From: a virus
Lineage: Duplodnaviria > Caudoviricetes
Length of the DNA: 64,000 nt
Strand: one strand, 5' to 3'
Virus record (IMG/VR): IMGVR_UViG_3300021400_000447
Coordinates: 17,403-81,402 of that record
In this document: positions 19,418 through 41,182 of the stretch, piece after piece
Layout of the letters: every line of letters starts with the position of its first letter
Position numbering within the stretch: position 1 is the stretch's first letter
Program-made: the position numbers and the translations under genes
Notes under the pieces: model-generated
Databases searched by the model: none
What the model saw: the letters and a program-made list of their open reading frames with translations, nothing else
Told to the model about the DNA's origin: nothing

Positions 19418-19424
19418 AAGTAAT

Positions 19425-19915: not shown

Positions 19916-19916
19916 T

Positions 19917-19945
19917 TTGACCAAAATGGGAAAATCAGCTATAAT
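19917..19945 (+). promoter_or_regulatory. Sigma-A promoter upstream of tRNA-Ser
   Basis: TTGACC-17 nt-TATAAT. Confidence 0.75.
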
Positions 19946-19958
19946 AAATATAGACAGT

Positions 19959-20044
19959 GGGGAGGTACCCAAGTGGCCGAAGGGAGCGACCTACTAAGTC
20001 GCCAGCGCCTCACGGCGGCGTGGGTTCGAATCCCACCCTCCCCG
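19959..20044 (+). tRNA. tRNA-Ser, unusual anticodon ACT
   Basis: Acceptor GGGGAGG/CCTCCCC; anticodon arm GCGAC-CT ACT AA-GTCGC; long variable arm; G73. Confidence 0.85.
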
Positions 20045-20066
20045 TTGAAAAGAAAGGAGCCATACT

Positions 20067-20732
20067 ATGGAGAAGTACCATAAAATTGAGACGATGTTTG
20101 AGCGCGATACCGAAGGTAAGCATCAGCTTCGTTACGGCGTGTTTCGTGATGAGACTGTTGAATATCTTTCTCACATGGATTGGGAATGGACTGAGAAGGT
20201 CGATGGTACGAACGTTCGTGTACATTGGGACGGCTATCATGTTGAATTTGGTGGCCGCACCGATAATGCACAGATGCCAGTCTTTCTTATGGAAAAGCTA
20301 ACGCAAATTTTCAAGACGCCCGCGGCTGAAGAGATGTTTGAGCAGCTTTTTGGAGAAAAAGATGTTATTCTCTTTGGCGAAGGATATGGTAATAGAATCC
20401 AGAAGGTTGGCTCTTGTTATATTCCTGATGGTGTTGGTTTTATCCTGTTCGATGTGATGATTGGCGGAAACTATCAGCCTCGTGATAGTGTTGTAAAGAT
20501 CGCAGAAGCGTTCTCTATTTCTGTTGTGCCGATTGTTGGGCGTGGAACTCTGTTCGATGCTCTTCGATATGTCGCAACGCATCCTACTTCCATTGTCGCG
20601 CAGAAGGAATGCGGAATGGAAGGCGTTGTTTGCCGACCAATGATTGAGCTTCGTGACCGTTGTGGTAAGCGTGTGATTGTTAAAATTAAGTGGAATGATG
20701 TAAAGGAGCTAATTGAAAGTGATCAGATTTAA
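20067..20732 (+). CDS. RNA ligase (Rnl2-like nucleotidyltransferase)
   Basis: Motif I TEKVDGTN, then LFGEGYG, FILFDV, EGVV, VKIK. Confidence 0.85.
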   Translation: MEKYHKIETMFERDTEGKHQLRYGVFRDETVEYLSHMDWEWTEKVDGTNVRVHWDGYHVEFGGRTDNAQMPVFLMEKLTQIFKTPAAEEMFEQLFGEKDVILFGEGYGNRIQKVGSCYIPDGVGFILFDVMIGGNYQPRDSVVKIAEAFSISVVPIVGRGTLFDALRYVATHPTSIVAQKECGMEGVVCRPMIELRDRCGKRVIVKIKWNDVKELIESDQI

Positions 20733-20931
20733 GATTAGTTATTGGGATGAAGATGCAAAAGACGCCATCACTGAACATGGTATTGCGGCAATTAAGACTT
20801 CAATTGGAGCTACTGTGGATGAAATTTATCAGTATTATGGCGCGGAGAACGTTTATGAACTATTCTTTTATGAGCTTGAGAGTTCAATTGTTCCTGATGA
20901 ACTACATGGTTTTCTTCGTGAGAATGAGTAA
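20719..20931 (+). CDS. Hypothetical protein
   Basis: AAGGAG RBS with GTG start; short acidic ORF. Confidence 0.55.
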   Translation: MIRFKISYWDEDAKDAITEHGIAAIKTSIGATVDEIYQYYGAENVYELFFYELESSIVPDELHGFLRENE

Positions 20932-20982
20932 TTGACTTTAGAAAAAAATTTTGATATAATACTTATAGACAGTGAGGGATGG

Positions 20983-21058
20983 GCTCCTGTGGCGCAGTTG
21001 GTAGCGCAACGGACTTTTAATCCGTGTGCCGCGGGTTCAAATCCCGCCAGGGGCACCA
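20983..21058 (+). tRNA. tRNA-Lys(TTT)
   Basis: Canonical cloverleaf; ACGGA-CT TTT AA-TCCGT; encoded CCA. Confidence 0.92.
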
Positions 21059-21060
21059 TT

Positions 21061-21240
21061 ATCCAAGACAGTAAGGATATAAAACTAAGCTGCGGTTTCT
21101 CACTCGAAGTCAGTAGAAGAGTGTGCGCTACACTTCGGAAATGGGAAGTGGGGATAAGCAAAGACCAGACCTGATGTTTTATGACGGTCGCCACGTAATG
21201 TGGAACAAAGGTAATTCCGTTCATAAGGCTATATGGAACA
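21061..21240 (+). ncRNA. Candidate structured intergenic RNA
   Basis: Begins with hairpin ATCC-AAGACAGTAA-GGAT; further hairpins CCAC/GTGG and GTTC..GAAC; no RBS-led ORF. Confidence 0.35.
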
Positions 21241-21244
21241 ACAA

Positions 21245-21319
21245 CGGGGAGTAGTTCAGTTTGGCTAGAATGGTCGATTTGGGATCGACAGGTCGCAAGT
21301 TCAAATCTTGTCTCCCCGA
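21245..21319 (+). tRNA. tRNA-Pro(TGG)
   Basis: CGGGGAG/CTCCCCG acceptor; GTCGA-TT TGG GA-TCGAC. Confidence 0.9.
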
Positions 21320-21321
21320 CT

Positions 21322-21790
21322 TGTCCAAGGCAGTGAGGACATTAAATTTATACTGTAACCTTACCCAAAGTTTATCTTTGGGAACATGGTGAAAACCGGA
21401 GCTGTGACGCCGGCCGGGATATAAAATTATTAGGCCACCGCTTATAGGAGAGATTGCTTAATGTGTTCTTCACTCCTTGCCCGTAAGCTAAATAAAGAAT
21501 CCTCACATTGCCGATGTAGTTAAAGCTACTACTGCCGGCGACCTCAGTGAAATTCTGGGGCGAGTACAATAAAAAAGCTTACAATGCATTTGGGTTGTAG
21601 GTATCCCTCTCCACGGAGGAAAACCTTCTATATGCTGACGAAAAACGGGAGACGAGAGAAGTGTTGGATGCTCTCACTGCGCGGGAAGTCGCAGAATCGC
21701 GGACTATGACCACCGACCCCGTCACATAGTGTAGTCAGTATTTTGGGCTTTGGTAAGAGGACCATATAAGTAGTTGATAGTGGAACAATA
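21322..21790 (+). ncRNA. Candidate structured non-coding RNA of about 470 nt
   Basis: Begins with hairpin TGTCC-AAGGCAGTGA-GGACA; multiple hairpins (CCCAAAG/CTTTGGG, GACTA..TAGTC); no credible ORF. Confidence 0.45.
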
Positions 21791-21800
21791 ACCCAAACTT

Positions 21801-21877
21801 CGGAACTTAACTCAGTTGGTTAGAGTGGCGGTCTTATAAACCGCAAGTCCTGGGTTCAAGTCCCAGAGTTCCGACCA
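21801..21877 (+). tRNA. tRNA-Ile, anticodon TAT (reads AUA)
   Basis: CGGAACT/AGTTCCG acceptor; GCGGT-CT TAT AA-ACCGC; encoded CCA. Confidence 0.9.
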
Positions 21878-21951
21878 TCTACCCAGCGTGCTGGGTGAAA
21901 TCTTTGGCGGGGATGTTCCCCGCCAATATTATAATCTAGGAGCATTTCTAA

Positions 21952-22236
21952 ATGGATCATTTTTATCGAATTATTGTATTTTTTCAAATTCCATCAGGCA
22001 CAAGACTTCCTAATTATGACACCGTAGGATATTATAAATATTTCAAAGATGCAGAACAATGTGTTAGAAATAATTCATATGACATAAACGAACAAGGTGC
22101 GCATCCAGCGGCTATGATTATTGAAACCGAATATGGCATGTATCCATTTTGTCCTGCTCGAGCATATTATGAATGGAAAAATGGGGAATATATTCGAGAA
22201 AAAGAACCTAAAGTGCTTCATGGATATAATATCTGA
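21952..22236 (+). CDS. Hypothetical protein
   Basis: AGGAG RBS; clean ORF. Confidence 0.6.
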   Translation: MDHFYRIIVFFQIPSGTRLPNYDTVGYYKYFKDAEQCVRNNSYDINEQGAHPAAMIIETEYGMYPFCPARAYYEWKNGEYIREKEPKVLHGYNI

Positions 22237-22308
22237 TCTAAAAATTTGACCTCTAATAAAAATTTTGCTATAATATATATGCAAGGTTGAGAGAAGGAGC
22301 TGATTCCT

Positions 22309-22434
22309 ATGCCGGATGATTTCGTAACGAATGATTCATATGACGCATATGATGCTGATTATGAAGAAGAAGAACAGACTTGGGACGAGTATTGCCGAGA
22401 ACTGGCGCGGGAAAGCGATGATTTGACAGATTAA
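22309..22434 (+). CDS. Very acidic 41-aa protein
   Basis: AAGGAG RBS just after promoter 22246; MPDDFVTNDSYDAYDADYEEEEQTWDEYCRELARESDDLTD. Confidence 0.55.
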   Translation: MPDDFVTNDSYDAYDADYEEEEQTWDEYCRELARESDDLTD

Positions 22435-22451
22435 AAAAATTATGATATAAT
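22423..22451 (+). promoter_or_regulatory. Sigma-A promoter driving the leader and suppressor tRNA
   Basis: TTGACA-17 nt-TATAAT. Confidence 0.8.
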
Positions 22452-22457
22452 TTATTA

Positions 22458-22712
22458 TGGGCTTGGGATAACTTTGGACACAGCTTATCCTGCCTAAAAT
22501 TAACAGGTGTTACAGAGCCACCTTTAAAGCCCTGGCTTCTGGGCGCAATCCCAAAAATCTACGACCGTTAACACGGATTTAGCACTTCAACTACCACCGG
22601 CACGAAATCCGCCGCGAAAGCGAACGAGTATGCTTGGTTTAACAAGCGGGCGGCTCAGTAGTGATATGTGGCTTAGCGGAAAACGGTATATAAAGAAGCG
22701 AAGTAAAGTGCA
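22458..22712 (+). ncRNA. Structured leader/ncRNA upstream of the suppressor tRNA
   Basis: Hairpins GGATAA/TTATCC, CGGATTT/AAATCCG, GCCC/GGGC; no ORF. Confidence 0.4.
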
Positions 22713-22717
22713 ATTGT

Positions 22718-22982
22718 AGCCCCTTAGTTCAACGGTAGAACACCGGTCTCTAGTCTTAATTTGGAGCTTCATATGGGGACATATGAATGAAAACGCCGCT
22801 AATTCGGAGAAAGCTTAACTGCCAACCCCGAGCAAGGAGAAATCCGTGTGTAGAGACTTTACACGGCGCATCTAGAACAGATGAAGATAAAGTCCGGACC
22901 ACAATGCAAAAGCAATGCGTGTGAAGAAAACCGTTATATCCCTCTGAAGGAGGTAGTCTGGGTTCGAATCCCAGAGGGGCCA
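22718..22982 (+). tRNA. Amber suppressor tRNA (anticodon CTA) interrupted by a group I intron; exons 22718-22751 and 22927-22982
   Basis: Joined exons give AGCCCCT-TA-GTTC AACGGTA GAAC-A-CCGGT CT CT|A AA ACCGT-23 nt arm-CTGGG TTCGAAT CCCAG-AGGGGCC-A. Mismatches at 1:72 and 27:43. Confidence 0.85.
22752..22926 (+). mobile_element. Compact group I intron (IC-type core, 175 nt, no ORF)
   Basis: P1 CTCT|AG/TTGGAG with U.G at the splice site; P2 TTCATATG-GGGA-CATATGAA; P3 CGCCG/CGGCG; AATTCGGAGAAA..CAACCCCGAGC (P4-P6); AGAGACT and AAGATAAAGTC (P7); P8 CATCT/AGATG; terminal G. Confidence 0.85.
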
Positions 22983-23035
22983 CAATATTGACTTTTCTTA
23001 CAAAATATACTATAATATATTTGTAAGAAAAATTT

Positions 23036-23106
23036 GGGGGATTCGCTAATCGGATTAGCACGCGGCTGTTAACCGCGCTAGAGAGGTTCAACTCCTCTAT
23101 CCCCCG
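23036..23106 (+). tRNA. tRNA-Asn(GTT)
   Basis: GGGGGAT/ATCCCCC; CGCGG-CT GTT AA-CCGCG; promoter at 22988-23016. Confidence 0.88.
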
Positions 23107-23200
23107 TTCGTGCTTTGATGACCAAATGTAGCTTGGCAGTAAATAAATATTAATGCAGATGTGGGGTTATGATGAAAGCCTTTACCTTAAAAGACTATAT

Positions 23201-23271
23201 GCGCGATTAGTGTAATGGTAACATTCGACCCTTCCAAGGTTGCGTTGACGGTTCGAGCCCGTTATCGCGCT
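23201..23271 (+). tRNA. tRNA-Gly(TCC)
   Basis: GCGCGAT/ATCGCGC; CGACC-CT TCC AA-GGTTG; U73. Confidence 0.9.
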
Positions 23272-23308
23272 CTTACACAAAGAGAAAATAAAATATCGTG
23301 GGAGAATA

Positions 23309-23542
23309 ATGAAAATGAGAAACGACAAGACTCTCGAACAGGCAGTTTCTGATACTGTTGCATACATTAAGCGTGCTGAAGCAGAACGCTTAGATGAAAA
23401 TCTGCGAATGAATCATTCTCAGATTGCGGAAATCGTGAGAGAAGAATTTACATTATTCGCCCGGCCAGAAGAAGACTATCAAACCACCATTGAGCGGGTC
23501 GGCCGCAGTATCATTGAAGAAACCGATCTTACCAGGTGGTAA
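23309..23542 (+). CDS. Hypothetical protein
   Basis: GGGAG RBS; ORF between tRNAs. Confidence 0.55.
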   Translation: MKMRNDKTLEQAVSDTVAYIKRAEAERLDENLRMNHSQIAEIVREEFTLFARPEEDYQTTIERVGRSIIEETDLTRW

Positions 23543-23545
23543 TTT

Positions 23546-23618
23546 GCTGGATTAGCTCAATTGGTAGAGCATTTGATTTGTAATCAAAGGGTTCTCGGTT
23601 CAAGTCCGACATCCAGCT
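23546..23618 (+). tRNA. tRNA-Thr(TGT)
   Basis: GCTGGAT/ATCCAGC; TTTGA-TT TGT AA-TCAAA. Confidence 0.9.
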
Positions 23619-23627
23619 CTTTATAAT

Positions 23628-23699
23628 GGGTTCATATATCAATGGTAGATGGCCTGCTTTGCAAGCAGGAGGTTGAGGGTTCAAATCCCTCTGGATCCA
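23628..23699 (+). tRNA. tRNA-Ala(TGC)
   Basis: CCTGC-TT TGC AA-GCAGG; G3.U70 Ala identity pair. Confidence 0.9.
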
Positions 23700-23704
23700 C
23701 TTCA

Positions 23705-24060
23705 ACCCAAGTAAAACGGGAATTGACTCGTTATAACCAGCCAATTTTAATTGGCGGCCTGATGAACGTTCGACTCGTTCGTTGCTTAAGTCGGTCTGAG
23801 GGCGGAACTGGCATCCGCCGCCTAAATGGAGATACAGGATTGTCACCCTGTCTACTTAAGCAAGTAGTTTAATGGCTAAAACCGTAGGCGACGTGGCGCG
23901 GACACTGGTTTGGGTGAGGTTTCTGCTATGACCAAAAAGACATAAAATATAGCAGCAATGTGTGCTTATGACGGTATTGTTACGTTGCGGAGCAATACTT
24001 GAGGCTTCATAGCAGTTAGCGTTAATCTGTGCGCAACAGTTAAAAAACGCATTTTGTGTT
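23705..24060 (+). ncRNA. Candidate structured non-coding RNA of about 350 nt
   Basis: TTGCTTAAGT 23782-23791 pairs with ACTTAAGCAA 23854-23863, enclosing hairpins GGCGGA/TCCGCC and ACAGG/CCTGT. Confidence 0.45.
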
Positions 24061-24081
24061 TATTTCTCTGGAGGAAAATAA

Positions 24082-24621
24082 ATGGCTGAACCTAGACTAA
24101 AGATTCTACCCCCTTGGACTATTACTATTCGTAAGTTTGAAGCTCTATTTGATGGTGATCCCCAGATTGCATGCAACTGCAACTTTGGCGGCACAGAACC
24201 TTCTATTACGCTCGCCTGTAACAATGGCGACAAGGTTGCAGCACTTCTACAGCTTCTACCTGATGAGATTGGTTTCGGGCATGTAAAGCTTAAGGTTGTG
24301 GTAGATGGCACTCCATCTAATCGTGTTTTTACAAGCAAGGTCGAACTTTTTGACACAGCGTTTAAGGGCAACCCAGCGTATGCCTATTCTGTTTGCCCTG
24401 CCGAGGAAGGTTATCAGTGGATTGGAACGACATATGTTGTATTCAATAATTGTGTAGTACAGTTTGCAGCGGATAATCTAAATGATTGCCATGGTGTTAT
24501 TAGCACACTTTATGAGACAATTGCTGATGAACTACTAACTGGGCCTGCGACTGAGGGCGTGTTCTTCAACACCAACGTTGAACGTGCTAATCTTGGTATG
24601 CCGCTTGGCGAGTGGCCGTAA
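24082..24621 (+). CDS. Hypothetical protein
   Basis: GGAGG RBS; 179-aa ORF, no TAG. Confidence 0.75.
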   Translation: MAEPRLKILPPWTITIRKFEALFDGDPQIACNCNFGGTEPSITLACNNGDKVAALLQLLPDEIGFGHVKLKVVVDGTPSNRVFTSKVELFDTAFKGNPAYAYSVCPAEEGYQWIGTTYVVFNNCVVQFAADNLNDCHGVISTLYETIADELLTGPATEGVFFNTNVERANLGMPLGEWP

Positions 24622-24679
24622 TATCTGACCTACTAGTGTAGGTACAGTTTCTGGGAGCGTGTATAAGCGCTTCCTGCTT

Positions 24680-24757
24680 CGGGATGTAGCACAGTTGGTT
24701 TAGTGCAGCGCTCTGATAAGGCGAAGACCGGTGGTTCAAGTCCATCCATCCCGACCA
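24680..24757 (+). tRNA. tRNA-Ile(GAT)
   Basis: CGGGATG/CATCCCG; loop CT GAT AA; encoded CCA. Confidence 0.88.
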
Positions 24758-24854
24758 GTGCGGGCGACCGGTCCGCAGAAGCGTCCGATCAACGCAAAAC
24801 CGGCCATGTGTGTTCCGCAACTCCACATGTAAAATTAAAAAAGTTGCGGCGCGT

Positions 24855-24927
24855 GCGAGATTAGCTCAGCTGGTAGAGCATTTGGCTTACATCCAAAGGG
24901 TCAGCGGTTCGAATCCGTTATCTTGCA
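24855..24927 (+). tRNA. tRNA-Val(TAC)
   Basis: GCGAGAT/ATCTTGC; TTTGG-CT TAC AT-CCAAA. Confidence 0.9.
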
Positions 24928-24951
24928 CTATAAAATATTGGAGGTTATATT

Positions 24952-25337
24952 ATGAAGGAAGTTGTAGTTTATTTTACCAATGGCAATCGTGCAACGTTTG
25001 AAATGGATAAAGTACAATTTGTTGATGTTATTACTCCAAAAATGCTAGAAGAGCTCCAAGTTACTGATGGATATTCACTAGTACGGAGCGATACGATTAG
25101 TTTCGTCAAGGTACGAGAAAAGAAAGAGGAAGTATAATGAGGGACATTAATCGCATTCCTAAGATGCTTAAACTTATTGAGACTGTGTGGCGCGAAGTCC
25201 CAGATTGGCGGCTTGGGCAACTGCTTGTAAATGTTGTAAATACACTAGGCGGCGTGCCTATGGATAATAATTTGTTCTACATCGAGGATGAAGATCTAAT
25301 GAAGGCACTAGAGAAAATTGCTGAGAGGGATGGCTAA
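24952..25337 (+). CDS. Two small coupled hypothetical genes (24952-25137, 25137-25337)
   Basis: GGAGG RBSs; TAATG overlap. Confidence 0.6.
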
Positions 25338-25670
25338 ATATGGAAACATTTCTTGTAATTTTTTCCGCAATTGGTGTTTGTGCGCTACTCTTTGGTCTTG
25401 GCTTATTTATTGTTAACCTACAGTAGCTTTTTGAGCGCGTGAGAAGTCTTGAAGAAACTGTATATAAGATTCAATATGGGGACAACGTGACTTTTAGTAC
25501 GAAAGATTAATGCCGATGATTAATGACGTGCTTATGATTATTCTGATTGTTTTTTACAGCATCTTCCTACTGCTCTTTCTGGCAATGGTCGGCTTCGGCG
25601 TATACGAGTTTGTCGCTATGTGCAAAGATGAAAAAGAAGCCAGGAAGGCCAGGAAGGAGAGGGAAGAGAG

Positions 25671-28600
25671 GTGGAAGAAATGAGACTTATTGATGCTGAC
25701 GCGCTGTTAGAGAAAATGAAACACAGAAAAGAGTATGTCGGCAGACCGTCCGACCCGGTGTGCCTCGTTGAGGATGCGCCCGCCGTTGCAGAATGGATAA
25801 ACGTAAAGGACAGGACGCCGAAGATTGGACAAATGTGCCTTATCTGGGATGGGAAGAATGTGAAGGCTGGGGTTCATCTTTCGTGCGGCGTGTGGAGCGT
25901 TTCAAACACGCTCGAATACCCTGAATTTTGGATGCCACTACTGCTTGAGCCTCCGAAGGAGATGAGTAGAGATGCGACTAATTGATGCGGACACGCTAAA
26001 AGAAATCATTGGTGAATGTCCGGAAAACTGGACAGATTCGCCAGAAGAAGTTGAAGCATTTAATATGTGGCATCGTATTATGGATGACATAGATTCTACT
26101 CCCACCGTGAAACCAGATTTTTGGATTAGCGTTGAGGAGCGCTTGCCTGATGACAGCATGGAAGTCCTTGTCTTACTAAAAATAAAAGATGTTCTTGTCC
26201 CAGACATGGGTGTATTAATAAGCGGCAATTGGTGGAGTACAATGTCTTACAATATGATGGTTGGTGACCCACTATTCTGGGCTGAGATTCCTCGCGGCCC
26301 TGATAATTACAAGTGATACACAGATGTGGAGGTAGACGGAGATGCGGCTGATTGATGCAGATAAGCTAATACGTAGTATCAATAGCATATCAGTTTTGAC
26401 CGGTCTTGGCCTTCAGCCTGTAATAACAATTGCAGATGTAAAAGAATTAATTAATGCAATACCAACAGCAAGTGACTGGATTAGCGTTAAAGAAAAACTG
26501 CCTGCAACAAATGTTGAGGTGCTGGCAATGTATGTATACGATGACAAGCCTGGTGAGCGTTACGTTGAACCAACATTCTATTTTGATGATGGTAATGGTA
26601 AAGGACATTGGCACTTAGGTGATGAGCACACCTTTGGGCCTGTACGAAAAACAATAATAGCGTGGATGCCAATGCCAAAGCCGTATGAGGTGAGTTAAAA
26701 ATGGCTGAATTTGATTTTGAAAACATCATTAAAAAAGGCGTTGAGGCGGCTATCAACGAGCCTGTATACGATGGCAAGAGTATCACAGAATGGGCGGCTG
26801 TCGGCATGAAAGCGCCGCAATGGATCAACGTGGAAGATAGAGTACCAGAAGATGCGCAAGATTACATCATATGCGTTCTCGCAGGTGACGGGACGAAGCA
26901 TGTAACGATCGGAACATATGATGGGTGGCGCAAACGTTGGAATGATAAGTTCGGTGTCATATGGGTGCCTGACCGTGTGACCCATTGGATGCCATTCCCA
27001 GAACCACTAGCTTGACGCTAAAAGAATCAAATGGGAGACAGAACCATGAAAATCATTGATTTTTCCAAAAAGGGCAATATAGTGCGCTTTTATTTGGGCG
27101 CTGATGACTTGCAAGAATGGTATGGCGACGATTGGAATGATGCGCCATATGAATATAATGCAGGAAAAGTATACGATCGATTTATCGTCGGTCACAAAGA
27201 CATTGCCTTTCCGTTTGATACGTTTGTGCTTGAACCGTGTGAAGGACACGTGAATAGCAGATGGTGTAAGAATGATATGGTAACAAGACGTGTGCCATGC
27301 ATCATTGCTGTACCAAAAGAAAAGACAGAGGATAGCTGGTATGGACAGGATTTTGAGCACTGGGTTTGGACGGATGGAGTACAGCGATTTTTCTTTGGAG
27401 ATAGAATGGAACTTGATGCAGAGGATGCGAGCGAAGATGCTTGACAGGAAGAAGGTTATTAAAGGGCTAGAGTGCTGTACCAAATCACCTGACACCATAG
27501 AGTTAGAGGATTGCCGCAGATGCCAATATAGGGATGAAAAGGATTGCTCCTGTGTGGTCATGCAGGACGCTCTCGCCCTGCTGAAAGAGCAGGAGCCTGT
27601 GGAACCGAAGAAACCAATCAGCGCGGATGACCCGTTCTACGAGTGCGGCAACTGTGGAATGCCCATTGCCAGCACCATGTATCAATTCTGTCCGTATTGC
27701 GGAAGGAAGGTAGATTGGAATGTCTGACCGGGAGAAGGTTATTAAGGAACTGGAAGAATGCCTCACTGCTTCGTGCAGAGGATTCTGGACTTGTCCGTAC
27801 AGCGACAATGCGTGGGATGCCGTTAGAGAAGCGCTGGCCCTGCTGAGAGAGCATGAGCCGATTGCACCTGTGAAGGTGAATAGGTACATCGAAACTAACG
27901 AACACGGCGGCTGGTTTCCATCTGAAACTTATGATTGTGGAAATTGCGGCGCAGAATTGTGTAACAAGGCGAATTATTGTTACGTTTGTGGAAGGCCGGT
28001 GAAGTGGGATGTATCTGCTTGGCGGATGGCTATCTACACCGAGACAAGATAAGAAAGAATGAGGGCAAAGATGTGGATCCGATAAGCCATTTTAGGAACA
28101 GATTCTATTATGGAGCAAATGAAGCTCATATTCCTTATTCAGATCTTGATGAAGAAGATCTCGAAGATGAAGAGCGCGACAGGTACTATCGGGCTAAGGA
28201 GTTCATTAAAGACACGCTTGACGATCCATGCGTATCTGTCTATTTGCGAACCAACTACCAAGGTATATTTGGCAATACTATGAGTCAAACTAAGTGGGAC
28301 AACCACGATTGGAGCGTTTACGCGGAAGTTGTTGCACAAAAATCAGACGAGGAACTCGAACCTTATCTTGCGGAACTTTTTGATTGGTGCAGCTTTATCT
28401 ACGATGATGGGACGGATGCAGACGTAATTGCTGAGAGGTTGAAGAAGTTTAAGCGTACTGATGGTTTTATGTATGCTGCAAAGATGGCAATACGAAGAGC
28501 AATGAATGATAGAACGATGAACCTATCCTCGAATTTTGACGTAGGTCTTCGGTGTGCGTTTTTGCCGGGAGAATATGAAATCTTGCTTGCAGAGATTAAA

Positions 28601-29194
28601 AATGAGGTGCAATTTGATGCGGTTAATTGATGTCGATGCTGTGATTTCTCATTTCGATAGCTAGCCTCCTAATTACTATACTTCAAGTTACATTGTTTCT
28701 GTACTTAAGGCAGCACCAGCAGCATTAACAGGCATATATGGAACTTGTAAACCATTCCATAAATGTCTTGGCGAATATTATTCTCTTGTTGACAATCCAA
28801 GTTATAGTTATTGCCCGTATTGCGGGAAGAAAGTGGAAACAGAATGAGGCATATTGATGCAGACGCCCTTGTCAGAACAATTGAAGATAAACGCTGTGCA
28901 GACTGTCCAGAAGTAAAGTCGCAACGATGCGGGGCATGTCAATGGGATGACGCGATCGCAATGATTGAGGAAGCACCAACCGCGGGTGGCTGGGTAAACG
29001 TAAATGACAGGCTGCCAGATGGTGAATGCATTGCATATAGCGCGAAGTGGTTTGAGATGATAATCGGTTATGTCTACAAGGCAACGGCAAGTGATACAGG
29101 GTACGAGGCAGAAAGTGAAAACGAAGTTTTGCGTGATGTCACACATTGGATGCCATTTCCAAAACCACCGGACGAGGTGAACACGAATGCCTGA
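25671..29194 (+). other. Array of about 10 small overlapping genes, mostly DUF551-like and Zn-ribbon paralogues (25671, 25972, 26342, 26701, 27031, 27437, 27720, ~27977, 28617, 28844)
   Basis: Recurring MRLIDADAL, WI(S/N)V.DRLP...WMP.P.PP and C..CG...(Y/F)CP.CG.KV motifs; coupled start/stop overlaps. Confidence 0.7.
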
Positions 29195-29534
29195 GTGGGT
29201 GGTTGTAGTGAACTGTCAAGGCCAGCCATTCTTCTATCCGCAGAAAAATCTATTTTGTGGGCTTGTTGCGTTGACATGGCATTATTTGAAAAAGCGAAAG
29301 TATAGAACAATGAATTTCAAACTTAAACAGAGGTGGAGGTGAGCTAGTGTGGGTGATGTGATGATGCTGATTCTAGGGTTCATTGCTGGCTTCCTTTGCG
29401 TTGCTTTAGGAGAGACAAAGGTTCTTGAGAACGCAGTTCACACAGCTTATCAGGACGGTCTCCGGGACGGCGCGGAAGAAGCACTAGCTCGTTAGGAGGC
29501 AAGAGAAAAGCTAGATAATTGAGGTGATTTAGTA

Positions 29535-29795
29535 ATGGGTACTATTATAGCAATAGTGATTTTTGTAGTTGTGGTACTTAGCTCATTCATTGCCGGCTAT
29601 ACAACAGGTTATGAAACTCAATGGATTTCAGACGAGAAACTTGCTAATCGTTATAATGGGTGGCTTACAAAAAGAGTTAAACACTTTGTATGCGGTATGG
29701 TTCATGGGCATGACTGGGAGGATGACACTCCTCTACTCGACCAGGGTATTAAATTCCAAACTTGTAAGAGATGCGGCAAGGAAAGAATGGTTTAA
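29535..29795 (+). CDS. Small protein with N-terminal membrane anchor
   Basis: GAGGTG RBS; hydrophobic N-terminus; C...GHDW...C.RCG. Confidence 0.6.
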   Translation: MGTIIAIVIFVVVVLSSFIAGYTTGYETQWISDEKLANRYNGWLTKRVKHFVCGMVHGHDWEDDTPLLDQGIKFQTCKRCGKERMV

Positions 29796-29874
29796 TCATC
29801 TCGTAAAAAAATTGACTAGAGAAAAAAATTTTGATATAATATATATGAAAGATGAGGAAAGGAAGTAACAAAGC

Positions 29875-30147
29875 ATGCTGTTTAGGTACAAGGTCATGGT
29901 GGCTGAGACTTCTGAATCGCGCAATTATCGAGATGCTGGTATCGTTTCTGCTAATGACCTCATTAGTGCTGTAAAGCGCATTGCAGAGTATCATGGCGAA
30001 GAAAACATTATCGAGCTCCGAATTGAGTCAGTAAATGATATTGTAAGCGATGAAGAGCTTGGTGAAGTGATCGTTCCTGATTACAGAAAAGAGCGAGATT
30101 GGTGCGATCACACTGCGCCGCTATTCTCTCTTGACAGCGAGGATTAA
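29875..30147 (+). CDS. Hypothetical protein
   Basis: Follows promoter 29812-29840; AAAGGAAG RBS. Confidence 0.6.
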   Translation: MLFRYKVMVAETSESRNYRDAGIVSANDLISAVKRIAEYHGEENIIELRIESVNDIVSDEELGEVIVPDYRKERDWCDHTAPLFSLDSED

Positions 30148-30160
30148 ACCCCGCTAACAT

Positions 30161-30245
30161 GCTGGTATGGTGAAATAGGCAAACACAGCAGACTTAAAAT
30201 CTGCCGCCGTAAGGCTTGCCGGTTCAAGTCCGGCTACCAGCACCA
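30161..30245 (+). tRNA. tRNA-Leu(TAA)
   Basis: GCTGGTA/TACCAGC; GCAGA-CT TAA AA-TCTGC; long variable arm; CCA. Confidence 0.92.
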
Positions 30246-30254
30246 CCTAAATCA

Positions 30255-30505
30255 ATAGGAGTTTTGAGACGGCTATTAGACTTAATACTCGGTCATACTA
30301 CAAATCCTATTGCCATCATGCGTCTGTAAACGCATGTGCGTCTGTTACAGCAGACAAAAGCGAAGCGACGAATGAGCTGGTACGCTCCCAGCCCTAAAGG
30401 ATATATGTCGCCGGACACCTCGCCCGTTGAGGAGGAAAGAATAGGGTAAATGTTCTACCCCTATCACCAAAATGCAAGGGCATGCAGAATGGTTAATTTG
30501 AACAT
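30255..30505 (+). ncRNA. Candidate structured intergenic RNA
   Basis: CAATAGGA/TCCTATTG, ATGCGT/ACGCAT, GTCTG/CAGAC, GCTGG/CCAGC and ATAGGG/CCCTAT stems. Confidence 0.4.
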
Positions 30506-30510
30506 TTTAT

Positions 30511-30592
30511 GCCCGAGTGGCGGAATGGCAGACGCGCTTGACTCAAAATCAAGTTCACAAGAGTGTGGGTTCAAGTCCCACCTTGGGCACCA
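30511..30592 (+). tRNA. tRNA-Leu(CAA)
   Basis: GCCCGAG/CTTGGGC; CTTGA-CT CAA AA-TCAAG; CCA. Confidence 0.92.
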
Positions 30593-30595
30593 TAT

Positions 30596-30668
30596 GCTCC
30601 ATTAGCCCAATGGCAGAGGCGATGCGCTTAGAACGCATACAGTGAGAGTTCGAATCCCATCGAGAGTG
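30596..30668 (+). pseudogene. Degenerate tRNA-Leu(TAG)
   Basis: Good D and anticodon arms (ATGCG-CT TAG AA-CGCAT); T stem and 3' acceptor strand do not pair. Confidence 0.55.
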
Positions 30669-30694
30669 CTGTAAAAATATTGAAGGGAAAAGAA

Positions 30695-31171
30695 ATGCCG
30701 ACTTTATATATCATTTGCGGCCCTAGTGGTAGCGGGAAATCTACTTGGGCAAAGAACTACATGATTGAACATGATGAACAAGATATTCGTTATGTTTCGC
30801 GCGATGAAATTCGTTATTCAATCGTTCATGATGATGAACCTTATTTTTCTCATGAACGTGAAGTTTTTCGCAAGTTTGTATCTACCATTGTAAACACGCT
30901 AATTGACGGATTTGACGTTATTGCTGATGCAACGCATCTTAATAGTGCTTCCCGCGCGAAGCTAACAAATGCAATCGATGCACGCTATTCTGATTATGAT
31001 ATTATTTACGTAGTATTTAATGTTCATATTTCTGAGTGTATTCGGCGTAATGGTCTGCGAGAAGGACGAATGTGTGTGCCTGATGGTGTTATCGATCGGC
31101 AATTCCATGATTTTTACGCTCCTACGCTTGAAGAAGATGTACGAGCGACTCGCATAATTTACGTATATTAA
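30695..31171 (+). CDS. P-loop kinase, polynucleotide-kinase-like (AAA_33)
   Basis: LYIICGPSGSGKSTWAK, SRDEIR, DATHLN...R, R.R.VP..VI..Q. Confidence 0.8.
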   Translation: MPTLYIICGPSGSGKSTWAKNYMIEHDEQDIRYVSRDEIRYSIVHDDEPYFSHEREVFRKFVSTIVNTLIDGFDVIADATHLNSASRAKLTNAIDARYSDYDIIYVVFNVHISECIRRNGLREGRMCVPDGVIDRQFHDFYAPTLEEDVRATRIIYVY

Positions 31172-31238
31172 AATTTGACTTTTAAGAAAAAATGTAATAT
31201 AATATATATATATGTAAGATGAGAAAGGGGCTAGAAAT

Positions 31239-31544
31239 ATGAAACCGTATAGTATGGGAAGCCACAAGCGTCGTAAGCATCAGCGCTGGCTGAATGCGTT
31301 CTGCCGTGAAGTGAATAAAACAATGGAACATGATCCTCTGTGGATGGGCAGATTCGTTGTCGAGCAGAAGCGGACTGAAATGCATTGGTTTCCTGACAAT
31401 AGCGGCGGCGTACTTTGGTGTGTGCTTCAGTTTAGAGACAAGAAAACTGGCCAAACCAAATTCTGGCCAACAACCTGCTTTACTGCGACTTGGGACATTT
31501 GGGAACGTATGAATGATTTCATTGTAAATGATTGTAAGGCATGA
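31239..31544 (+). CDS. Hypothetical protein
   Basis: Follows promoter 31175-31203; clean ORF. Confidence 0.65.
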   Translation: MKPYSMGSHKRRKHQRWLNAFCREVNKTMEHDPLWMGRFVVEQKRTEMHWFPDNSGGVLWCVLQFRDKKTGQTKFWPTTCFTATWDIWERMNDFIVNDCKA

Positions 31545-31729
31545 AGAAAAGAAGGAGTACACAAATGAACGATAATGCAGCAAGAATTGAACTTACATAT
31601 TATCCGGCAGATAATAGCAGAGAACGTTATCGCGAACTTGTCTGCGATGTAAACGAAGATCTAACGTTTGAAGAATTTGCGTAGATTTGTAATTATTTTG
31701 GAGCTGTATTGGGTTTCAGAGACAGATAT

Positions 31730-31758
31730 TTGACTCCAAACTAAGAATATGATATAAT
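31730..31758 (+). promoter_or_regulatory. Sigma-A promoter for the large ncRNA
   Basis: TTGACT-17 nt-TATAAT; the predicted start (~31765) coincides with the first base of the closing stem. Confidence 0.8.
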
Positions 31759-31765
31759 AAATATA

Positions 31766-32361
31766 AGGAGCATTTTCCTTAATAAATGATTGACCCAAGT
31801 GCAGATGTGCCAACCACACTGCTTGGGCTATCTGAATAACAGCCATACGTTACGGCCCGGGATACTAGGCACACGCGGCCGCCGAAACAGCAATGCTAGG
31901 CGATAGGAAGAAACTTCTAATGTTAAGGATAGGCGCTTAAATATTCGCAATCAAAAGTATTATTCCTCTTGGCCACATAATAGAAAGCTCATTGAATAGG
32001 TGAGCCGAATCCAGATAAGGTGGTAGCTGGTAACTGCTGCAAACTCTGGAATTACCATAAGTGGCTAATGTCGATGAAAGCCAGAAATGGCATATAAAAG
32101 AGGTTTAAAGTAAAAGTAGGCCAATACGACATTAATTGTATGTTAACACATAAGCAAGTATGCTTAATATGATTATTGCTGAATGGTTTGGCTGAAATTT
32201 CAGGGTAAGCAATCCCTGCTATACATGGCTGTAAAGCGGGTTAAGAAAGTTACGGGGTAGCTCCTTGTGGCTCAGCTCTTAATTCTATAGTGACTGAATA
32301 TGATTGAAGAATATTATAAGTATGGCGAAGGCTGCAATCATTTGTTAAGGAAAATGCTCCT
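31766..32361 (+). ncRNA. Large (~596 nt) ornate non-coding RNA, ROOL/GOLLD-class candidate
   Basis: 27-bp terminal helix 31766-31792 with 32335-32361 (one G.U); many internal stems; own promoter; no ORF. Confidence 0.75.
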
Positions 32362-32382
32362 AATTTTTATTTAGGTGATTCT

Positions 32383-33327
32383 ATGGCAGAAAACAAATTT
32401 ACCGCGACAGATTTGAAAGAAATGCAATCATAGGATTTGGCATGGAAAATCTAGCGTACTGTTGCGAAATTATTGGAATTTTATAATTATTATGACGGAA
32501 AAGTATATATAAGTTTTTCTGGCGGGAAAGACAGCACTGTTTTACTACATATTGCACGAAGGTTATTTCCTGATATAAAAGCCGTATATTCAGATACCGG
32601 TTTGGAATATCCTGAGATAAAAGAATTTGTAAAAACATGGGATAACGTAGATATAATTCGTCCAAAAAGAACTTTCAGGCAAGTAATAGAATAGTTTGGA
32701 TATCCTGTTGTAAGTAAATATGTCGCTGGTTACGTTTCAACCGCGCGAAAACATCCAGAATCAACTCGCGCGCAATATTTACGCGGTGAAATACAATCCA
32801 AAGCGTTCGGCTTTGGAGATGGAAAGTGGGCATATTTAGTAGACGCACCATTCAAGATTAGCGCTTGGTGCTGCGATGTAATGAAAAAATAGCCACTACA
32901 TCAATATCAACGTGAAACTGGCCTGTATCCAATCGTTGGAACGCTCGCAGAAGAATCTATGTCCCGTAGGAATCAATGGTTAAAACAAGGCTGCAATGTT
33001 TTTGATACTAAAGAACCAATTAGTAAGCCTTTGTCATTTTGGACGACAAATGATATTCTCCAATATTTAAAAGAGTTCAATGTGCCCTATTGCCCAATAT
33101 ATGGAGAAATCATAGAAGATAAAAATGGTAAGTTACATACATCTAAACTACGCGCAACTGGTTGCATTTTTTGTATGTTCGGCGCGCACTTAGAAAAAGA
33201 ACCAAATCGTTTTTAGCAGTTAAAGATAACCCATCCAAAAATTTGGGAATATTGCTTAAGACCATGGGACAAAGGCGGATTAGGCATGAAAGAAGTGTTA
33301 GAATATTTAAATATCAAATATGAATGA
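32383..33327 (+). CDS. PAPS-reductase-family (PP-loop) protein
   Basis: YISFSGGKDSTVLL, CCDVMKK.P, RATGCIFC; joined across 5 TAG; ends TGA. Confidence 0.85.
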
Positions 33328-33999: not shown

Positions 34000-34563
34000 A
34001 TGAATAAAATCTTTTTTACAAGCGATACACATTTTTGTCATGATAAAGATTTTGTATGGCAGAAACGTGGTTTTTCTAGTGTTCAGGATATGAATGCAGC
34101 ACTAGTGTGCAGATGGAACGAAGTTGTTGATGAAGACGACACAGTTTTTCATCTTGGCGATTTAGCACTTGGCGACGTTGAAGAAGCTATGACGTACATT
34201 CGCCAGTTAAAAGGACAAATAATTTGGATCGGCGGTAATCATGATACAGAAAATAAAATTCAAAGGATTACACGGCATAATCTAAATATTAATTTTGTAG
34301 GTTATGCGTATATTATGAAATATCATAAACTTCATTTTTATCTTTCTCACTATCCTACCATCACAGCCAACTTTGATGATAAATATTTTTCGCAGCACGT
34401 AATTAACCTTCACGGACATACGCATCAAGTAGATCACTTTATGACTGTTGAAAACCCTTTTATGTATAACGTTGGTGTTGATGCTTGCAATAATACGCCG
34501 ATTGAAATTGACAAGGTAATTGATGATATATCTTGTAGATGGAGGGCGTTGCAAGAGGAATAA
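34000..34563 (+). CDS. Calcineurin-like metallophosphoesterase
   Basis: FTSDTHFCH, HLGD, GNHD, HGHTH, NVGVD. Confidence 0.85.
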   Translation: MNKIFFTSDTHFCHDKDFVWQKRGFSSVQDMNAALVCRWNEVVDEDDTVFHLGDLALGDVEEAMTYIRQLKGQIIWIGGNHDTENKIQRITRHNLNINFVGYAYIMKYHKLHFYLSHYPTITANFDDKYFSQHVINLHGHTHQVDHFMTVENPFMYNVGVDACNNTPIEIDKVIDDISCRWRALQEE

Positions 34564-38219: not shown

Positions 38220-38636
38220 ATGAAGATTTTTTTGAGTTTACTTTTTACTATTATGCTTTTATTTAATTTTTCTGCCGCGGAAGCGCCGTCTCCAGATGCA
38301 GAAACACTTGTGCGGTTTATCCCAGATTTATACTTTACATCAATTTATGCGCTTGAAGATGATCCATGGGTGTTAATTAATGAGTTTTCTGAAGAAGATA
38401 GCACCATGTTTGTTGTTGATGAAGCGCTTGAAGTGCAATTGGATGAAGAGCTAGATGAAGTTACAATGTTTTGTACTAGATATTACAATGCCGAAGATAG
38501 CATCTTTGTAATCTGGCACAATGATAGTAATACTATTATTATATCTCCTGATGTAATTGATGGTTGTTTACTATTGGACATGCATGAAATTTAGCCAAGC
38601 GTATATCGTGTTTATGTAATGTTTATGGAGCCGTGA
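38220..38636 (+). CDS. Hypothetical exported acidic protein
   Basis: Signal-peptide-like N-terminus; 3' end ambiguous (TAG 38592 or TGA 38634). Confidence 0.5.
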
Positions 38637-38649
38637 GGCTCTTTTTTTT
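38628..38649 (+). terminator. Intrinsic terminator
   Basis: GAGCC-GTGA-GGCTC followed by a T run. Confidence 0.75.
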
Positions 38650-38680
38650 ATTGTATCAATAGGTATTGGAGGCTATTTTA

Positions 38681-41182
38681 ATGAGAAAAAAAGCAATAAA
38701 AAGCTCATCAACAAGCTCAAAAAAAAGAACAGCCAACATGGGTAGTGGAGCATCATCTGTCTAGCCAGCAATACCCGGGATAAATTTGCCTGCATTTAAG
38801 TTAAATGATTTATTTGTATATTTTTCAGATTTATAGAGAAATACAGGTTAGAAAGACTGGGTAGCGTAGCGTCACGCATTGTACAAGGCTGCATCAGGTA
38901 CATTCAAAACTGGTATAACAGCTATTTCAGTGATGAGTAATAAAAATGAAGGAGGCCGGCGATATGGCGGCAACCAATTAATATAGGCAATTGAACTCCT
39001 TAAAACTCTCGCGCAGTCTGAGCAAGCAAAAGAAATGGCGGCAATACGATCATATGTAGATCATAAAAGACAAATAATGCATGAAATGGATCGAATGGGA
39101 ATACAATTTCCAGGCATAAAAATGGATAAATTAACTATTACAAATGGTCTTGGAACTTATACGTCTAATTATGGAGACATAACTTCACAAGAATTCTACA
39201 AATTCTATGTGCAAGAGATACAATGGTTAGCAAGAATAAATGCGATTAATAAAGATGCATTAAAAAAATTAATAGACGCACGAAATAGATTAGAATCAAT
39301 TTAGTATAGAGAAACAAAAGGAAAAGAACGCAGACAACTATGGGAATACACAAGAGATACTGCAGAAATGGCGGTCTCAAGAGAATATTTAGAACCATTT
39401 TTAAATAATTTATTACAAACCAACAAACAAAAAGGATATAAAGGTGATTAGACGATAGATGCAAGTTTTTAGACGATAGTCTAGGAAGCTGTTATGAAAG
39501 TCATGACATCATCTCAAGTTGTATCAAATTTAGTCGCTAGATTTCTTACAACGAGCAACGGTTTTAATGGTTCTTCATAGCAAGATTTTGTTGCTCTAGC
39601 CAGTGCGCTTTTAGGTGATATAGTAAAACAAGTAGAAATGCATTTATTACAATCATTGGGGCGGAACGGCCAAAGAACTGGAATGAATTACTTTACTGAC
39701 ATTCATGGAGTAGAGGGAAGAGAAGCTGTATTTGATCTTGTTGAAGAGTATATTAAGAAAATAGACAAAGGCGCAGCGTATGATGATTTTGACTCCAGTT
39801 TTTAGAGGGCATTAAGTTATTCTGCTTCCGATTATGATACAATCCGTGCTCAAGGAGTCCAGCAATTGCAAGAAGACTTAGCATCGTGGGCATCTGCTAT
39901 TGGAATTGAAACACCAGCTCTATAGAAAACATTGAAAGAAATTTTGGTACAAGATAAAGTAAAATTACGAAAAGAAGAAACAATTCGCAGAAAGACTGAT
40001 AAGTTAGTAGAGCAAATGAGAGATGATTTATACAGTATTATGATATCGGAAAAAGGCTTTAAATCTTTTAGCAGCCGTCAAATGAGAGCTGCAATTCAGC
40101 GATGGGGAAAAAGTATAAAATTTAAATTTAACCCTAACAATGCCCGCCAAGGCTCAATAAATGAAGCAATGTAGCAAATTTTGGTAGGTGGTATACGACG
40201 TGCAGGTCTTATCGGCACTGATAGAACGTATGTAGTGGGAGAATTTAATATAGAATTTTTGAATCCAATAGAATCTCTCAGCGATCCAAAACAATCTACA
40301 TCTAAACTGTATAAAGCACTTCAAGATTATGGTAGAGAATTAGCAAAAATTAGAGACGACGCGTCTGGCCGAGAAAATCTTACACAGAGATATAACGACG
40401 CAAAAAAACAATTAGATCAAGCAATAAATTTAATACAAAAATTTCTGTAGGAGCATAATGAACAGGTATTTATTGTGCATAGCAGCGATAAATTATCTGT
40501 AAATGCAGAAACTGGCGGTGTTATTGGACAAAAAGGATTCCAAGGAACAGAGTTTACAGGTTTTAGAGCCTTAGATCAATTGAACGCAGGTTTAAATCAT
40601 CTCGATGTATCAGCGCCCGGTGCGACAATAAATATTGATATAATTAAATTTTTATTATTAAACATGTCTAGTAATGCATTGGGTGGCGGTAATGAAGATG
40701 CAATAAAAGATAGATTAATACAATATTTATCTGCGTTTGGTGCTATCTTAATGTTTGATGACATCGATCAAATGGTAATTGATCAAACAAAAACTGCGAA
40801 GGCAGTAACAAATTCTTTATCTACAATGTCAGGCGGTTTATATGCAATTCATATATTTACAATAAATGGTGTCTAGTTACCGCTATCATTAATACTATTT
40901 TAGCTCGCCAAGCAGTATGAAAATTTGATAGCAGGAGCTAAAAATGGTTTTGGAAACGACCCAACGGATACTGTTAAGGTAAAAATTAGTAGTGGAGTAG
41001 GTGGCGTTGTTAGTGCATGGGTATCTAAAGCGCAACAAGGCAGAATGACAAACACATCATATTATGATCCTGATGATTGGGCTAATGTGGCAAATGCCGC
41101 AACTAGTTCAATAAAATTAAATATTATCTTTTTACAAAATTTTACAAAACTAATTAAAAATTTAACAGACCAAATATAGTAA
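38681..41182 (+). CDS. Large unknown protein, about 833 aa, with about 17 TAG (probably late/virion)
   Basis: GGAGG RBS; track ORFs 39035, 39932, 40181, 40475 and 40925 share one frame; ends TAG-TAA. Confidence 0.75.

What the first reader, a model, noticed from the sequence alone, without database searches (positions are those of the whole stretch)
31730..32361. Promoter-defined ~596-nt RNA closed by a 27-bp end-to-end helix
Seen in sequence: AGGAGCATTTTCCTTAATAAATGATTG (31766-31792) pairs with CAATCATTTGTTAAGGAAAATGCTCCT (32335-32361). The single difference is a G.U wobble, which favours RNA structure over a DNA repeat. A perfect promoter starts transcription at the helix. The interior has nested stems (CCCAAG/CTTGGG with GCAG/CTGC, GCTCA/TGAGC, TCCAGA/TCTGGA, GCCAC/GTGGC) and no ORF. 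Established: ROOL (~580 nt) and GOLLD RNAs are giant ornate RNAs of Bacillota phages found near tRNA clusters, with unknown function. This is either a ROOL-like member or a new class.
Basis: partly seen in the sequence, partly recalled or inferred. Interest (0 to 1): 0.75.

Follow-up and report, generated by a model that had tools for sequence, protein, structure and literature searches.

The report
ROOL cage-forming RNA in phage
The ~596-nt helix-closed region is a full-length copy of ROOL, a known large phage non-coding RNA that assembles into hollow RNA-only cages of unknown function, so it is real but not a new class.

Summary
A 27-bp end-to-end helix (26 Watson-Crick pairs and one U.G) joins 31766-31792 to 32335-32361. 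A near-consensus extended -10 promoter ends 7 nt before the helix. The interior is highly structured (MFE z = -5.85).

It is not a new class. Rfam ROOL (RF03087) matches 31771-32353 over the whole model (1-574) at 311.8 bits, against a gathering score of 99.1 (E 7.7e-71). Twenty of 20 homologues fetched from IMG/VR are also full-length ROOLs (287-406 bits), and all lie in tRNA arrays.

An alignment made without the Rfam structure gives 87 consensus pairs. Of these, 71 show compensatory changes, including the closing helix, and the window copy forms 76 of 87. The loop-junction kissing pair that cryo-EM shows bridging ROOL subunits is kept here through a compensatory change (UGGUA/UACCA instead of UGGCA/UGCCA).

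The host is an uncultivated TAG-recoded phage fragment (81 kb, about 46% complete). ROOL lies 1.1 kb downstream of a 14-tRNA array that includes an intron-bearing tRNA(CUA).

Expression could not be tested, and the biological function remains unknown, as for the whole family. This scan has already confirmed ROOL copies on other DNA. Low interest.

The parts
31730..31758 (+). Sigma-70-type promoter: -35 TTGACT (31730-31735), 17-nt spacer, extended -10 TGATATAAT (31750-31758)
   Evidence: 11 of 12 consensus matches plus TG, the best site in 31400-32700; coordinates confirmed. Function as a promoter is inferred, not shown.
31766..32361 (+). ROOL RNA gene (596 nt counting the whole closing helix; Rfam model-aligned part 31771-32353)
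   Evidence: RF03087 at 311.8 bits vs gathering 99.1, E 7.7e-71, model 1-574/574, not truncated. MFE z = -5.85. Forms 76 of 87 RNAalifold consensus pairs.
31766..31792 (+). P1 closing helix, 5' arm
   Evidence: P1 columns 6-24/704-722 of alignment A1 show compensatory changes in every pair.
32335..32361 (+). P1 closing helix, 3' arm (one U.G wobble with the 5' arm)
31987..32005 (+). Apical hairpin (P7 in Kretsch numbering, P10 in Wang numbering; my assignment from stem order): GCUCAUU-GAAUA-GGUGAGC, 5 Watson-Crick + 2 U.G pairs
   Evidence: Its length matters because an ultrashort version goes with the hexameric L. salivarius ROOL (PMC12990946).
32028..32032 (+). L8 loop pentamer UGGUA, one partner of the conserved kissing interaction (bridge B4)
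   Evidence: Pairs with 32053-32057. Covariation across 18 ROOLs: 87.5% paired, score 0.451 vs 0.206 in shuffles (0 of 500 reach it), slid controls at most 40%.
32053..32057 (+). Junction pentamer UACCA, the other partner of the kissing interaction
   Evidence: The consensus is UGCCA, so the G-to-A change here compensates the C-to-U change in L8.
32125..32178 (+). Variable internal linker (non-conserved, A/T-rich)
   Evidence: Falls in the unaligned, length-variable columns about 406-490 of A1 and in the low-confidence loop of the Rfam alignment. The equivalent region is disordered and lies inside the cage in env-120 (PMC12286853).
32193..32215 (+). Most conserved ROOL core motif (TGAAA-N-TT-N4-GTAA-N-CAATCC)
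   Evidence: Invariant columns in A1. Used as the probe that retrieved 76 IMG/VR loci.
32362..32372 (+). U-rich tract AAUUUUUAUUU directly after P1; possible 3'-end signal
   Evidence: Sequence. No canonical terminator was called on the + strand. A similar U-tract follows P1 in some homologues but not all. Inference only.
19958..30669 (+). Upstream tRNA array (context): 13 intron-less tRNAs plus an intron-bearing tRNA(CUA) at 22718-22983
32383..33327 (+). Downstream gene (context): PAPS-reductase-domain protein, 314 aa with 5 in-frame TAG codons, RBS AGGTGA 32373-32378
   Evidence: PF01507, E 1.7e-20. Not found next to ROOL in any of the 76 fetched loci.

Best explanation
Window 31766-32361 (+) is a gene for a ROOL RNA (Rfam RF03087) carried by an uncultivated, TAG-recoded phage.

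Shown here: it matches the family model end to end. It has the family's helices, which covary among homologues. It keeps the loop-junction kissing pair through a compensatory change. It sits just downstream of the phage's tRNA array.

Inferred from the sequence: host RNA polymerase starts at about 31765-31766 from the strong extended -10 promoter, so the first transcribed bases form the 5' arm of P1. The 27-bp P1 closes the molecule. The 3' end is made either at the U-tract that follows P1, or by processing of a read-through transcript that continues into the PAPS-reductase-like gene.

Inferred from solved relatives (env-120, E. faecalis and L. salivarius ROOLs): the folded monomer is a flat tile. 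Copies join through kissing loops and A-minor contacts into a closed, hollow, protein-free cage. An octamer is more likely than a hexamer here, because the apical hairpin is 7 bp and not ultrashort.

Speculative: the cage acts within the phage's translation and tRNA module, for example by holding or shielding tRNAs or other cargo. No function is known for any ROOL.
For: The Rfam match is full length, and the score lies inside the 287-406-bit range of 20 IMG/VR ROOLs. RNAalifold on a MAFFT alignment, made without the Rfam structure, gave 87 pairs, 71 of them with changes on both sides, P1 included. The window forms 76 of 87, within the homologue range of 71-86. The kissing pair covaries (G:C to A:U at columns 300/330; C:G to U:A or G:C at 301/329), and the window has the U:A form. 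The terminal duplex energy of -46.9 kcal/mol is within the homologue range of -19 to -47. Promoter. tRNA context. Cage assembly, the intermolecular nature of bridge B4 and the interior linker come from PMC12286853. Hexamer versus octamer and the apical stem come from PMC12990946.
Against: Assembly and stoichiometry cannot be computed from sequence. My mapping of the window's loop and junction onto 'L8' and 'J6/8' rests on stem order in the Rfam consensus, not on the paper's figure. Eleven of 87 consensus pairs are not formed in this copy, and the Rfam alignment marks further non-canonical pairs, mostly in the 5' domain. Alignment A1 holds five near-identical rows, so cell counts overstate the number of independent events. 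About 12 lineages are really distinct.
Confidence: 0.95

Rival explanations
1. A new class of giant ornate RNA that only resembles ROOL in size and context.
For: The copy has no nucleotide-level match in the deposited phage collection.
Against: The covariance-model match is full length at three times the curated threshold. Invariant ROOL motifs are shared with 17 other ROOLs. The family-specific kissing pair is kept.
Confidence: 0.01
2. A cis-acting 5' leader that regulates the PAPS-reductase-like gene starting 22 nt after the helix, with ROOL and the gene made as one transcript.
For: No canonical terminator lies between ROOL and the ATG at 32383, so the promoter at 31730-31758 may also drive the downstream gene.
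Against: tblastn found no PAPS-reductase homologue in any of the 76 ROOL-bearing loci. In 20 of 20 checked homologues ROOL lies in a tRNA array. ROOL RNAs fold and assemble on their own in vitro (PMC12286853). Co-transcription is still possible, but it would not make ROOL a dedicated leader.
Confidence: 0.03
3. A DNA-level feature: 27-37-bp terminal inverted repeats of a small non-autonomous mobile element or a recombination site.
For: At the DNA level the repeat extends to 37 nt at 92%.
Against: The arms differ between homologues while staying complementary, with compensatory changes at every P1 pair. That selects for RNA pairing, not for a protein-recognised repeat sequence. The one mismatch is a U.G on the + strand only. 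The interior is a conserved RNA family. The extra 10 nt are A/T-rich promoter and U-tract sequence.
Confidence: 0.01
4. A protein-coding gene visible only under the phage's TAG=sense code (92-aa frame 31790-32068).
For: The frame opens when TAG is read as Gln, and the phage does recode TAG.
Against: It has a TTG start, and I see no Shine-Dalgarno-like sequence upstream of it. It covers only the 5' half of a full-length ROOL. Substitutions among homologues preserve base pairs, not a reading frame. Reading one stop codon as sense lengthens chance frames everywhere: ORFs of at least 100 aa rose from 102 to 130.
Confidence: 0.01

Closest known systems
ROOL RNA (Rfam RF03087; Weinberg et al. 2017, PMC5737381; cryo-EM env-120 octamer PDB 9MDS, PMC12286853; E. 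faecalis octamer 9J3T and L. salivarius hexamer 9J6Y as tabulated in PMC12990946)
   Same: Full-length model match, and a length of 583-596 nt against a family mean of 581 nt. It shares the closing P1, the multi-junction architecture with covarying stems, the conserved core motifs, the L8-junction kissing pair, the variable internal linker, and the phage location beside tRNA genes.
   Different: It has a dedicated near-consensus promoter abutting P1. Only 3 of the 20 homologues checked have a comparably strong site, and most lie directly behind a tRNA. It is separated from the last tRNA by three small ORFs (about 1.1 kb). P1 is 27 continuous pairs, whereas the Rfam consensus draws 16-17. The kissing pentamers are UGGUA/UACCA. 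The host phage reads TAG as sense.
GOLLD RNA
   Same: It is also a large ornate phage/prophage RNA found near tRNA arrays, and it also forms RNA-only cages (PMC12286853).
   Different: Its sequence and fold are unrelated. No GOLLD match appeared in the Rfam scans, even at E up to 0.1. GOLLD is larger (often over 800 nt) and forms 10- to 14-mers.
OLE RNA
   Same: It is a large ornate bacterial RNA that homo-oligomerises (as a dimer).
   Different: It is chromosomal in extremophilic/anaerobic Bacillota, works with Oap proteins, and has no phage or tRNA context. No Rfam match here.

Membership tests
ROOL RNA (RF03087) | Covariance-model score at or above Rfam's gathering score, over the whole model | tested here: met
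   311.8 bits vs 99.1; model 1-574 of 574; E 7.7e-71; not truncated.
ROOL RNA (RF03087) | Size near the family mean of 581 nt (PMC5737381) | tested here: met
   583 nt model-aligned, 596 nt with the full P1. Homologues run 564-648 nt.
ROOL RNA (RF03087) | Complex multi-junction secondary structure closed by P1, supported by covariation | tested here: met
   RNAalifold on 18 ROOLs gave 87 pairs, 71 with both-sided changes. The window forms 76 of 87.
ROOL RNA (RF03087) | Conserved loop-junction pairing (L8 with J6/8; bridge B4, intermolecular in the cryo-EM cage) | tested here: met
   UGGUA 32028-32032 is complementary to UACCA 32053-32057. In the family the pairing is 87.5% formed, with covariation 0.451 vs 0.206 (0 of 500 shuffles) and slid controls at most 40%. 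Sequence cannot tell whether the pairing is inter- or intramolecular.
ROOL RNA (RF03087) | Non-conserved internal linker between conserved domains | tested here: met
   32125-32178 aligns to the length-variable, unconserved columns.
ROOL RNA (RF03087) | Phage/prophage location, often near tRNA genes | tested here: met
   The source is a virus record. A 14-tRNA array ends 1.1 kb upstream. 20 of 20 homologues lie in tRNA arrays.
ROOL RNA (RF03087) | Self-assembly into a closed homo-oligomeric cage (hexamer or octamer) | not testable with these tools
   Needs mass photometry or cryo-EM of the transcript.
ROOL RNA (RF03087) | Expressed as a discrete, abundant RNA | not tested
GOLLD RNA | Match to the Rfam GOLLD model | tested here: not met
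   No GOLLD match at gathering score in the whole window, nor at E up to 0.1 in 19000-32500.

The most novel reading that the evidence does not exclude
In this phage ROOL may be one working part of a translation-takeover module. That module also holds a 14-tRNA array with an intron-bearing amber-suppressor tRNA(CUA), and it supports TAG-to-sense recoding. On this reading the ROOL cage would store, shield or time the release of phage tRNAs, or engage ribosomes, during the switch of genetic code. Its dedicated strong promoter would let it be made independently of the tRNA operon. No paper in the searched library links ROOL to stop-codon recoding.
Probability: 0.07. Interest if true: 0.65.

Novelty: new member of a known kind. 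Interest (0 to 1): 0.18.

Why it matters
On its own this adds little. It is one more ROOL copy, found by the standard Rfam model, and this scan has already confirmed several others.

It has modest value as a specimen. It is a natural ROOL with an unusually clean transcription unit, with promoter, start at the helix base, 27-bp clamp and U-tract. That would make it a convenient construct for expression and assembly studies.

It also places ROOL in a TAG-recoded phage, beside a suppressor tRNA. That is one more hint that the family's unknown function is tied to phage control of translation.

The L8/junction compensatory variants collected here (UGGCA/UGCCA, UGGUA/UACCA, UGAGA/UCUCA, UGACA/UGUCA) independently support the published inter-subunit bridge.

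Tried and rejected
1. Nucleotide searches of the ROOL region (blastn) and of a 14-kb surrounding stretch (megablast) against deposited phage genomes found nothing. A conserved 788-aa protein reaches only about 33% identity. The phage lineage and its host therefore stay unassigned.

There is no evidence on expression or transcript ends, and read laying was not used.

3. Measuring P1 length with RNAduplex on 60-nt ends also captured inner helices. It is usable only as a rough comparison of end-pairing energy, not as a P1 length.

4. I tested whether PAPS reductase is a conserved ROOL neighbour. There were no hits in 76 loci, so the leader hypothesis is downgraded.

5. I looked for tRNAs embedded in ROOL linkers, as occurs in some GOLLDs. 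ARAGORN found none in 21 ROOLs.

6. A coding-density test for recoding on the other ROOL loci is noisy, because the loci are short and tRNA-rich. A few look TAG-recoded (L052: 0.41 to 0.75), but I draw no conclusion about enrichment.

7. I did not build my own covariance model. ROOL exceeds the 400-column limit, and the Rfam model already decides membership.

Full report
**Observation.** The arms 31766-31792 and 32335-32361 form 27 consecutive pairs, 26 Watson-Crick and one U.G. The repeat finder extends the complementarity at the DNA level to 37 nt at 92% (31756-31792 / 32335-32371). The added bases are the A/T-rich -10 and spacer region on one side and a U-tract on the other, and they lie upstream of the predicted start.

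The promoter scan gives TTGACT, 17 nt, then TG-n-TATAAT at 31730-31758. It matches 11 of 12 positions with an extended -10 and is the best site in 31400-32700. The -10 ends 7 nt before the helix.

The 596-nt RNA folds to -192.9 kcal/mol against -153 +/- 6.8 for shuffles (z = -5.85, none of 100 as good), and the MFE keeps all 27 closing pairs. Under table 11 no + strand frame inside exceeds 38 aa.

**What it is.** A scan of the whole window against Rfam 15 matches ROOL (RF03087) at 31771-32353 on the + strand. The score is 311.8 bits against a gathering score of 99.1, E 7.7e-71, covering model positions 1-574 of 574 without truncation. The same match comes back from the genome-level search and the permissive scan. 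No GOLLD or OLE match appears at either threshold.

**Homologues and covariation.** The most conserved ROOL core motif, used as an exact pattern, retrieved 76 IMG/VR contigs. I ran Rfam over 20 of them. All 20 hold a full-length ROOL of 287-406 bits, each inside a tRNA array, and seven have a tmRNA gene nearby. The window's score is therefore ordinary for the family.

I aligned 18 ROOLs on their model boundaries with MAFFT, using no structural information (A1). RNAalifold on that alignment predicts 87 pairs, 71 of which show at least one sequence changed on both sides with pairing kept. The closing helix (columns 6-24 with 704-722) is included, and every pair in it has compensatory variants. 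The window copy forms 76 of the 87 pairs, within the homologue range of 71-86.

One caveat: five rows are near-identical, so roughly a dozen lineages are independent.

**A family-specific tertiary feature.** Kretsch et al. (PMC12286853) report that the most conserved inter-subunit bridge of the ROOL cage (B4) is base pairing between loop L8 and junction J6/8. In the Rfam consensus, the loop of the long hairpin after the apical stem reads GUGGcAa, and the junction after it reads AAUgCCAAUAA. These can pair as UGGCA/UGCCA. The window has UGGUA (32028-32032) and UACCA (32053-32057), a both-sided change that keeps five pairs. Other homologues carry UGAGA/UCUCA (L048) and UGACA/UGUCA (L068).

Counted formally on A1, the four alignable pairs are 87.5% formed. 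The covariation score is 0.451 against 0.206 in shuffles, and 0 of 500 shuffles reach it. Sliding the partner by 1-3 columns drops pairing to 12-40%. My assignment of these elements to the paper's L8 and J6/8 follows stem order and is an inference.

**Other anatomy.** The stretch 32125-32178 falls in the unconserved, length-variable columns. It corresponds to the linker that is disordered inside the env-120 cage.

The apical hairpin at 31987-32005 has 7 pairs. The review PMC12990946 attributes the hexameric form of the L. salivarius ROOL to an ultrashort apical stem, while env-120 and E. faecalis ROOLs are octamers. I therefore lean towards an octamer here, as inference only.

The terminal duplex energy (-46.9 kcal/mol) is at the strong end of the homologue range of -19 to -47. 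That measure also captures inner helices.

**Transcription unit.** A comparably strong upstream promoter is present in only a few homologues (L030 12/12, L070 11/12, L077 10/12). Most lie directly behind a tRNA and have no promoter-like site. This fits Weinberg et al.'s suggestion that the proximity of ROOL to tRNAs could arise from co-transcription (PMC5737381). The window copy is the self-contained variant.

No canonical terminator follows it. P1 is followed at once by AAUUUUUAUUU, and similar U-tracts follow P1 in some homologues but not all. The next gene starts 22 nt after the helix and encodes a PAPS-reductase-domain protein (PF01507, E 1.7e-20). No homologue of that gene occurs in any of the 76 ROOL loci. 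ROOL is therefore not a dedicated leader for it, although read-through is possible.

**Genomic setting.** The window is bases 17403-81402 of an 81,402-bp IMG/VR virus record that CheckV rates about 46% complete. It has no nucleotide relatives in the deposited phage collection and only about 33% protein identity for a conserved 788-aa protein.

The phage reads TAG as a sense codon. Reading through TAG raises + strand ORF coverage from 0.66 to 0.84 with the same number of ORFs. The PAPS-reductase-like gene has 5 in-frame TAGs, and an 849-aa frame has 18. With introns allowed, ARAGORN calls a tRNA with anticodon CUA and a 175-nt intron at 22718-22983.

The recoding opens a 92-aa frame across the ROOL 5' half. 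I dismiss it for three reasons. It starts at TTG and I see no Shine-Dalgarno-like sequence upstream of it. It covers only half of a full-length RNA family member. The substitutions among homologues conserve pairs, not codons.

**How it most likely works.**
- *Shown:* family membership, covarying architecture, the retained bridge-forming pair, and the phage/tRNA context.
- *Inferred:* transcription from its own promoter starting at the base of P1; folding into the flat ROOL tile; self-assembly into a hollow RNA-only cage, as in the solved relatives.
- *Speculative:* a role in the phage's tRNA and translation programme. Both Kretsch et al. and the 2026 review only hypothesise encapsulation of cargo such as tRNAs, and no function is established.

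**Novelty and verdict.** This is a new copy of a well-described family and is detectable with the standard model. Earlier follow-ups in this scan already confirmed ROOL in other genomes. The only mildly new points are the clean stand-alone transcription unit and the occurrence in a TAG-recoded phage. The searched library does not link recoding to ROOL. Interest is low.

Noticed in passing
window 1-64000 (examples 32383-33327 and 38633-41182): The phage reads TAG as a sense codon. Reading through TAG raises + strand ORF coverage from 0.66 to 0.84 with an unchanged ORF count. A PAPS-reductase-like gene has 5 in-frame TAGs and an 849-aa frame has 18.
   Followed up: partly
window 22718-22983 (+): With introns allowed, ARAGORN calls a tRNA with anticodon CUA interrupted by a 175-nt intron after position 35. 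It is a likely amber suppressor that fits the recoding. Rfam gave no group I intron match there, even at E up to 0.1.
   Followed up: partly
window 19958-20045 (+): A class II tRNA-Ser with the rare anticodon ACU (loop CU-ACU-AA). ARAGORN draws it with an 8-bp acceptor stem and a 3-bp D stem.
   Followed up: partly
window 23791-23858 (+): A match to Rfam skipping-rope RNA (RF02924) just over threshold (38.1 bits vs 36.7), inside the tRNA array.
   Followed up: no
window 30680-31171 (+) and 34000-34563 (+): A P-loop kinase-like protein (AAA_33, also KTI12/Zeta-toxin-like) lies directly after the last tRNA-Leu. A calcineurin-like phosphoesterase lies 1.6 kb downstream of ROOL. Together they could be RNA-end-repair enzymes beside the tRNA/ROOL block.
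   Followed up: no
L048:3426-3737, L067:495-915, L065:1088-1508, L006:3098-3399, L031:4686-5103, L063:2102-2519, L070:5807-6083: Phage-borne tmRNA genes lie within a few kb of ROOL in 7 of the 20 ROOL-bearing IMG/VR loci examined.
   Followed up: no
L077, ROOL linker (alignment A1 columns about 455-485): The variable linker of this ROOL contains GGTTCGAATCC, a tRNA T-arm-like motif. ARAGORN finds no complete tRNA there.
   Followed up: partly
L052, L035, L005, L016 and others: Some other ROOL-bearing viral contigs also gain much ORF coverage when TAG is read through (L052: 0.41 to 0.75). Others gain with TGA read-through. The test is noisy on short tRNA-rich loci.
   Followed up: partly
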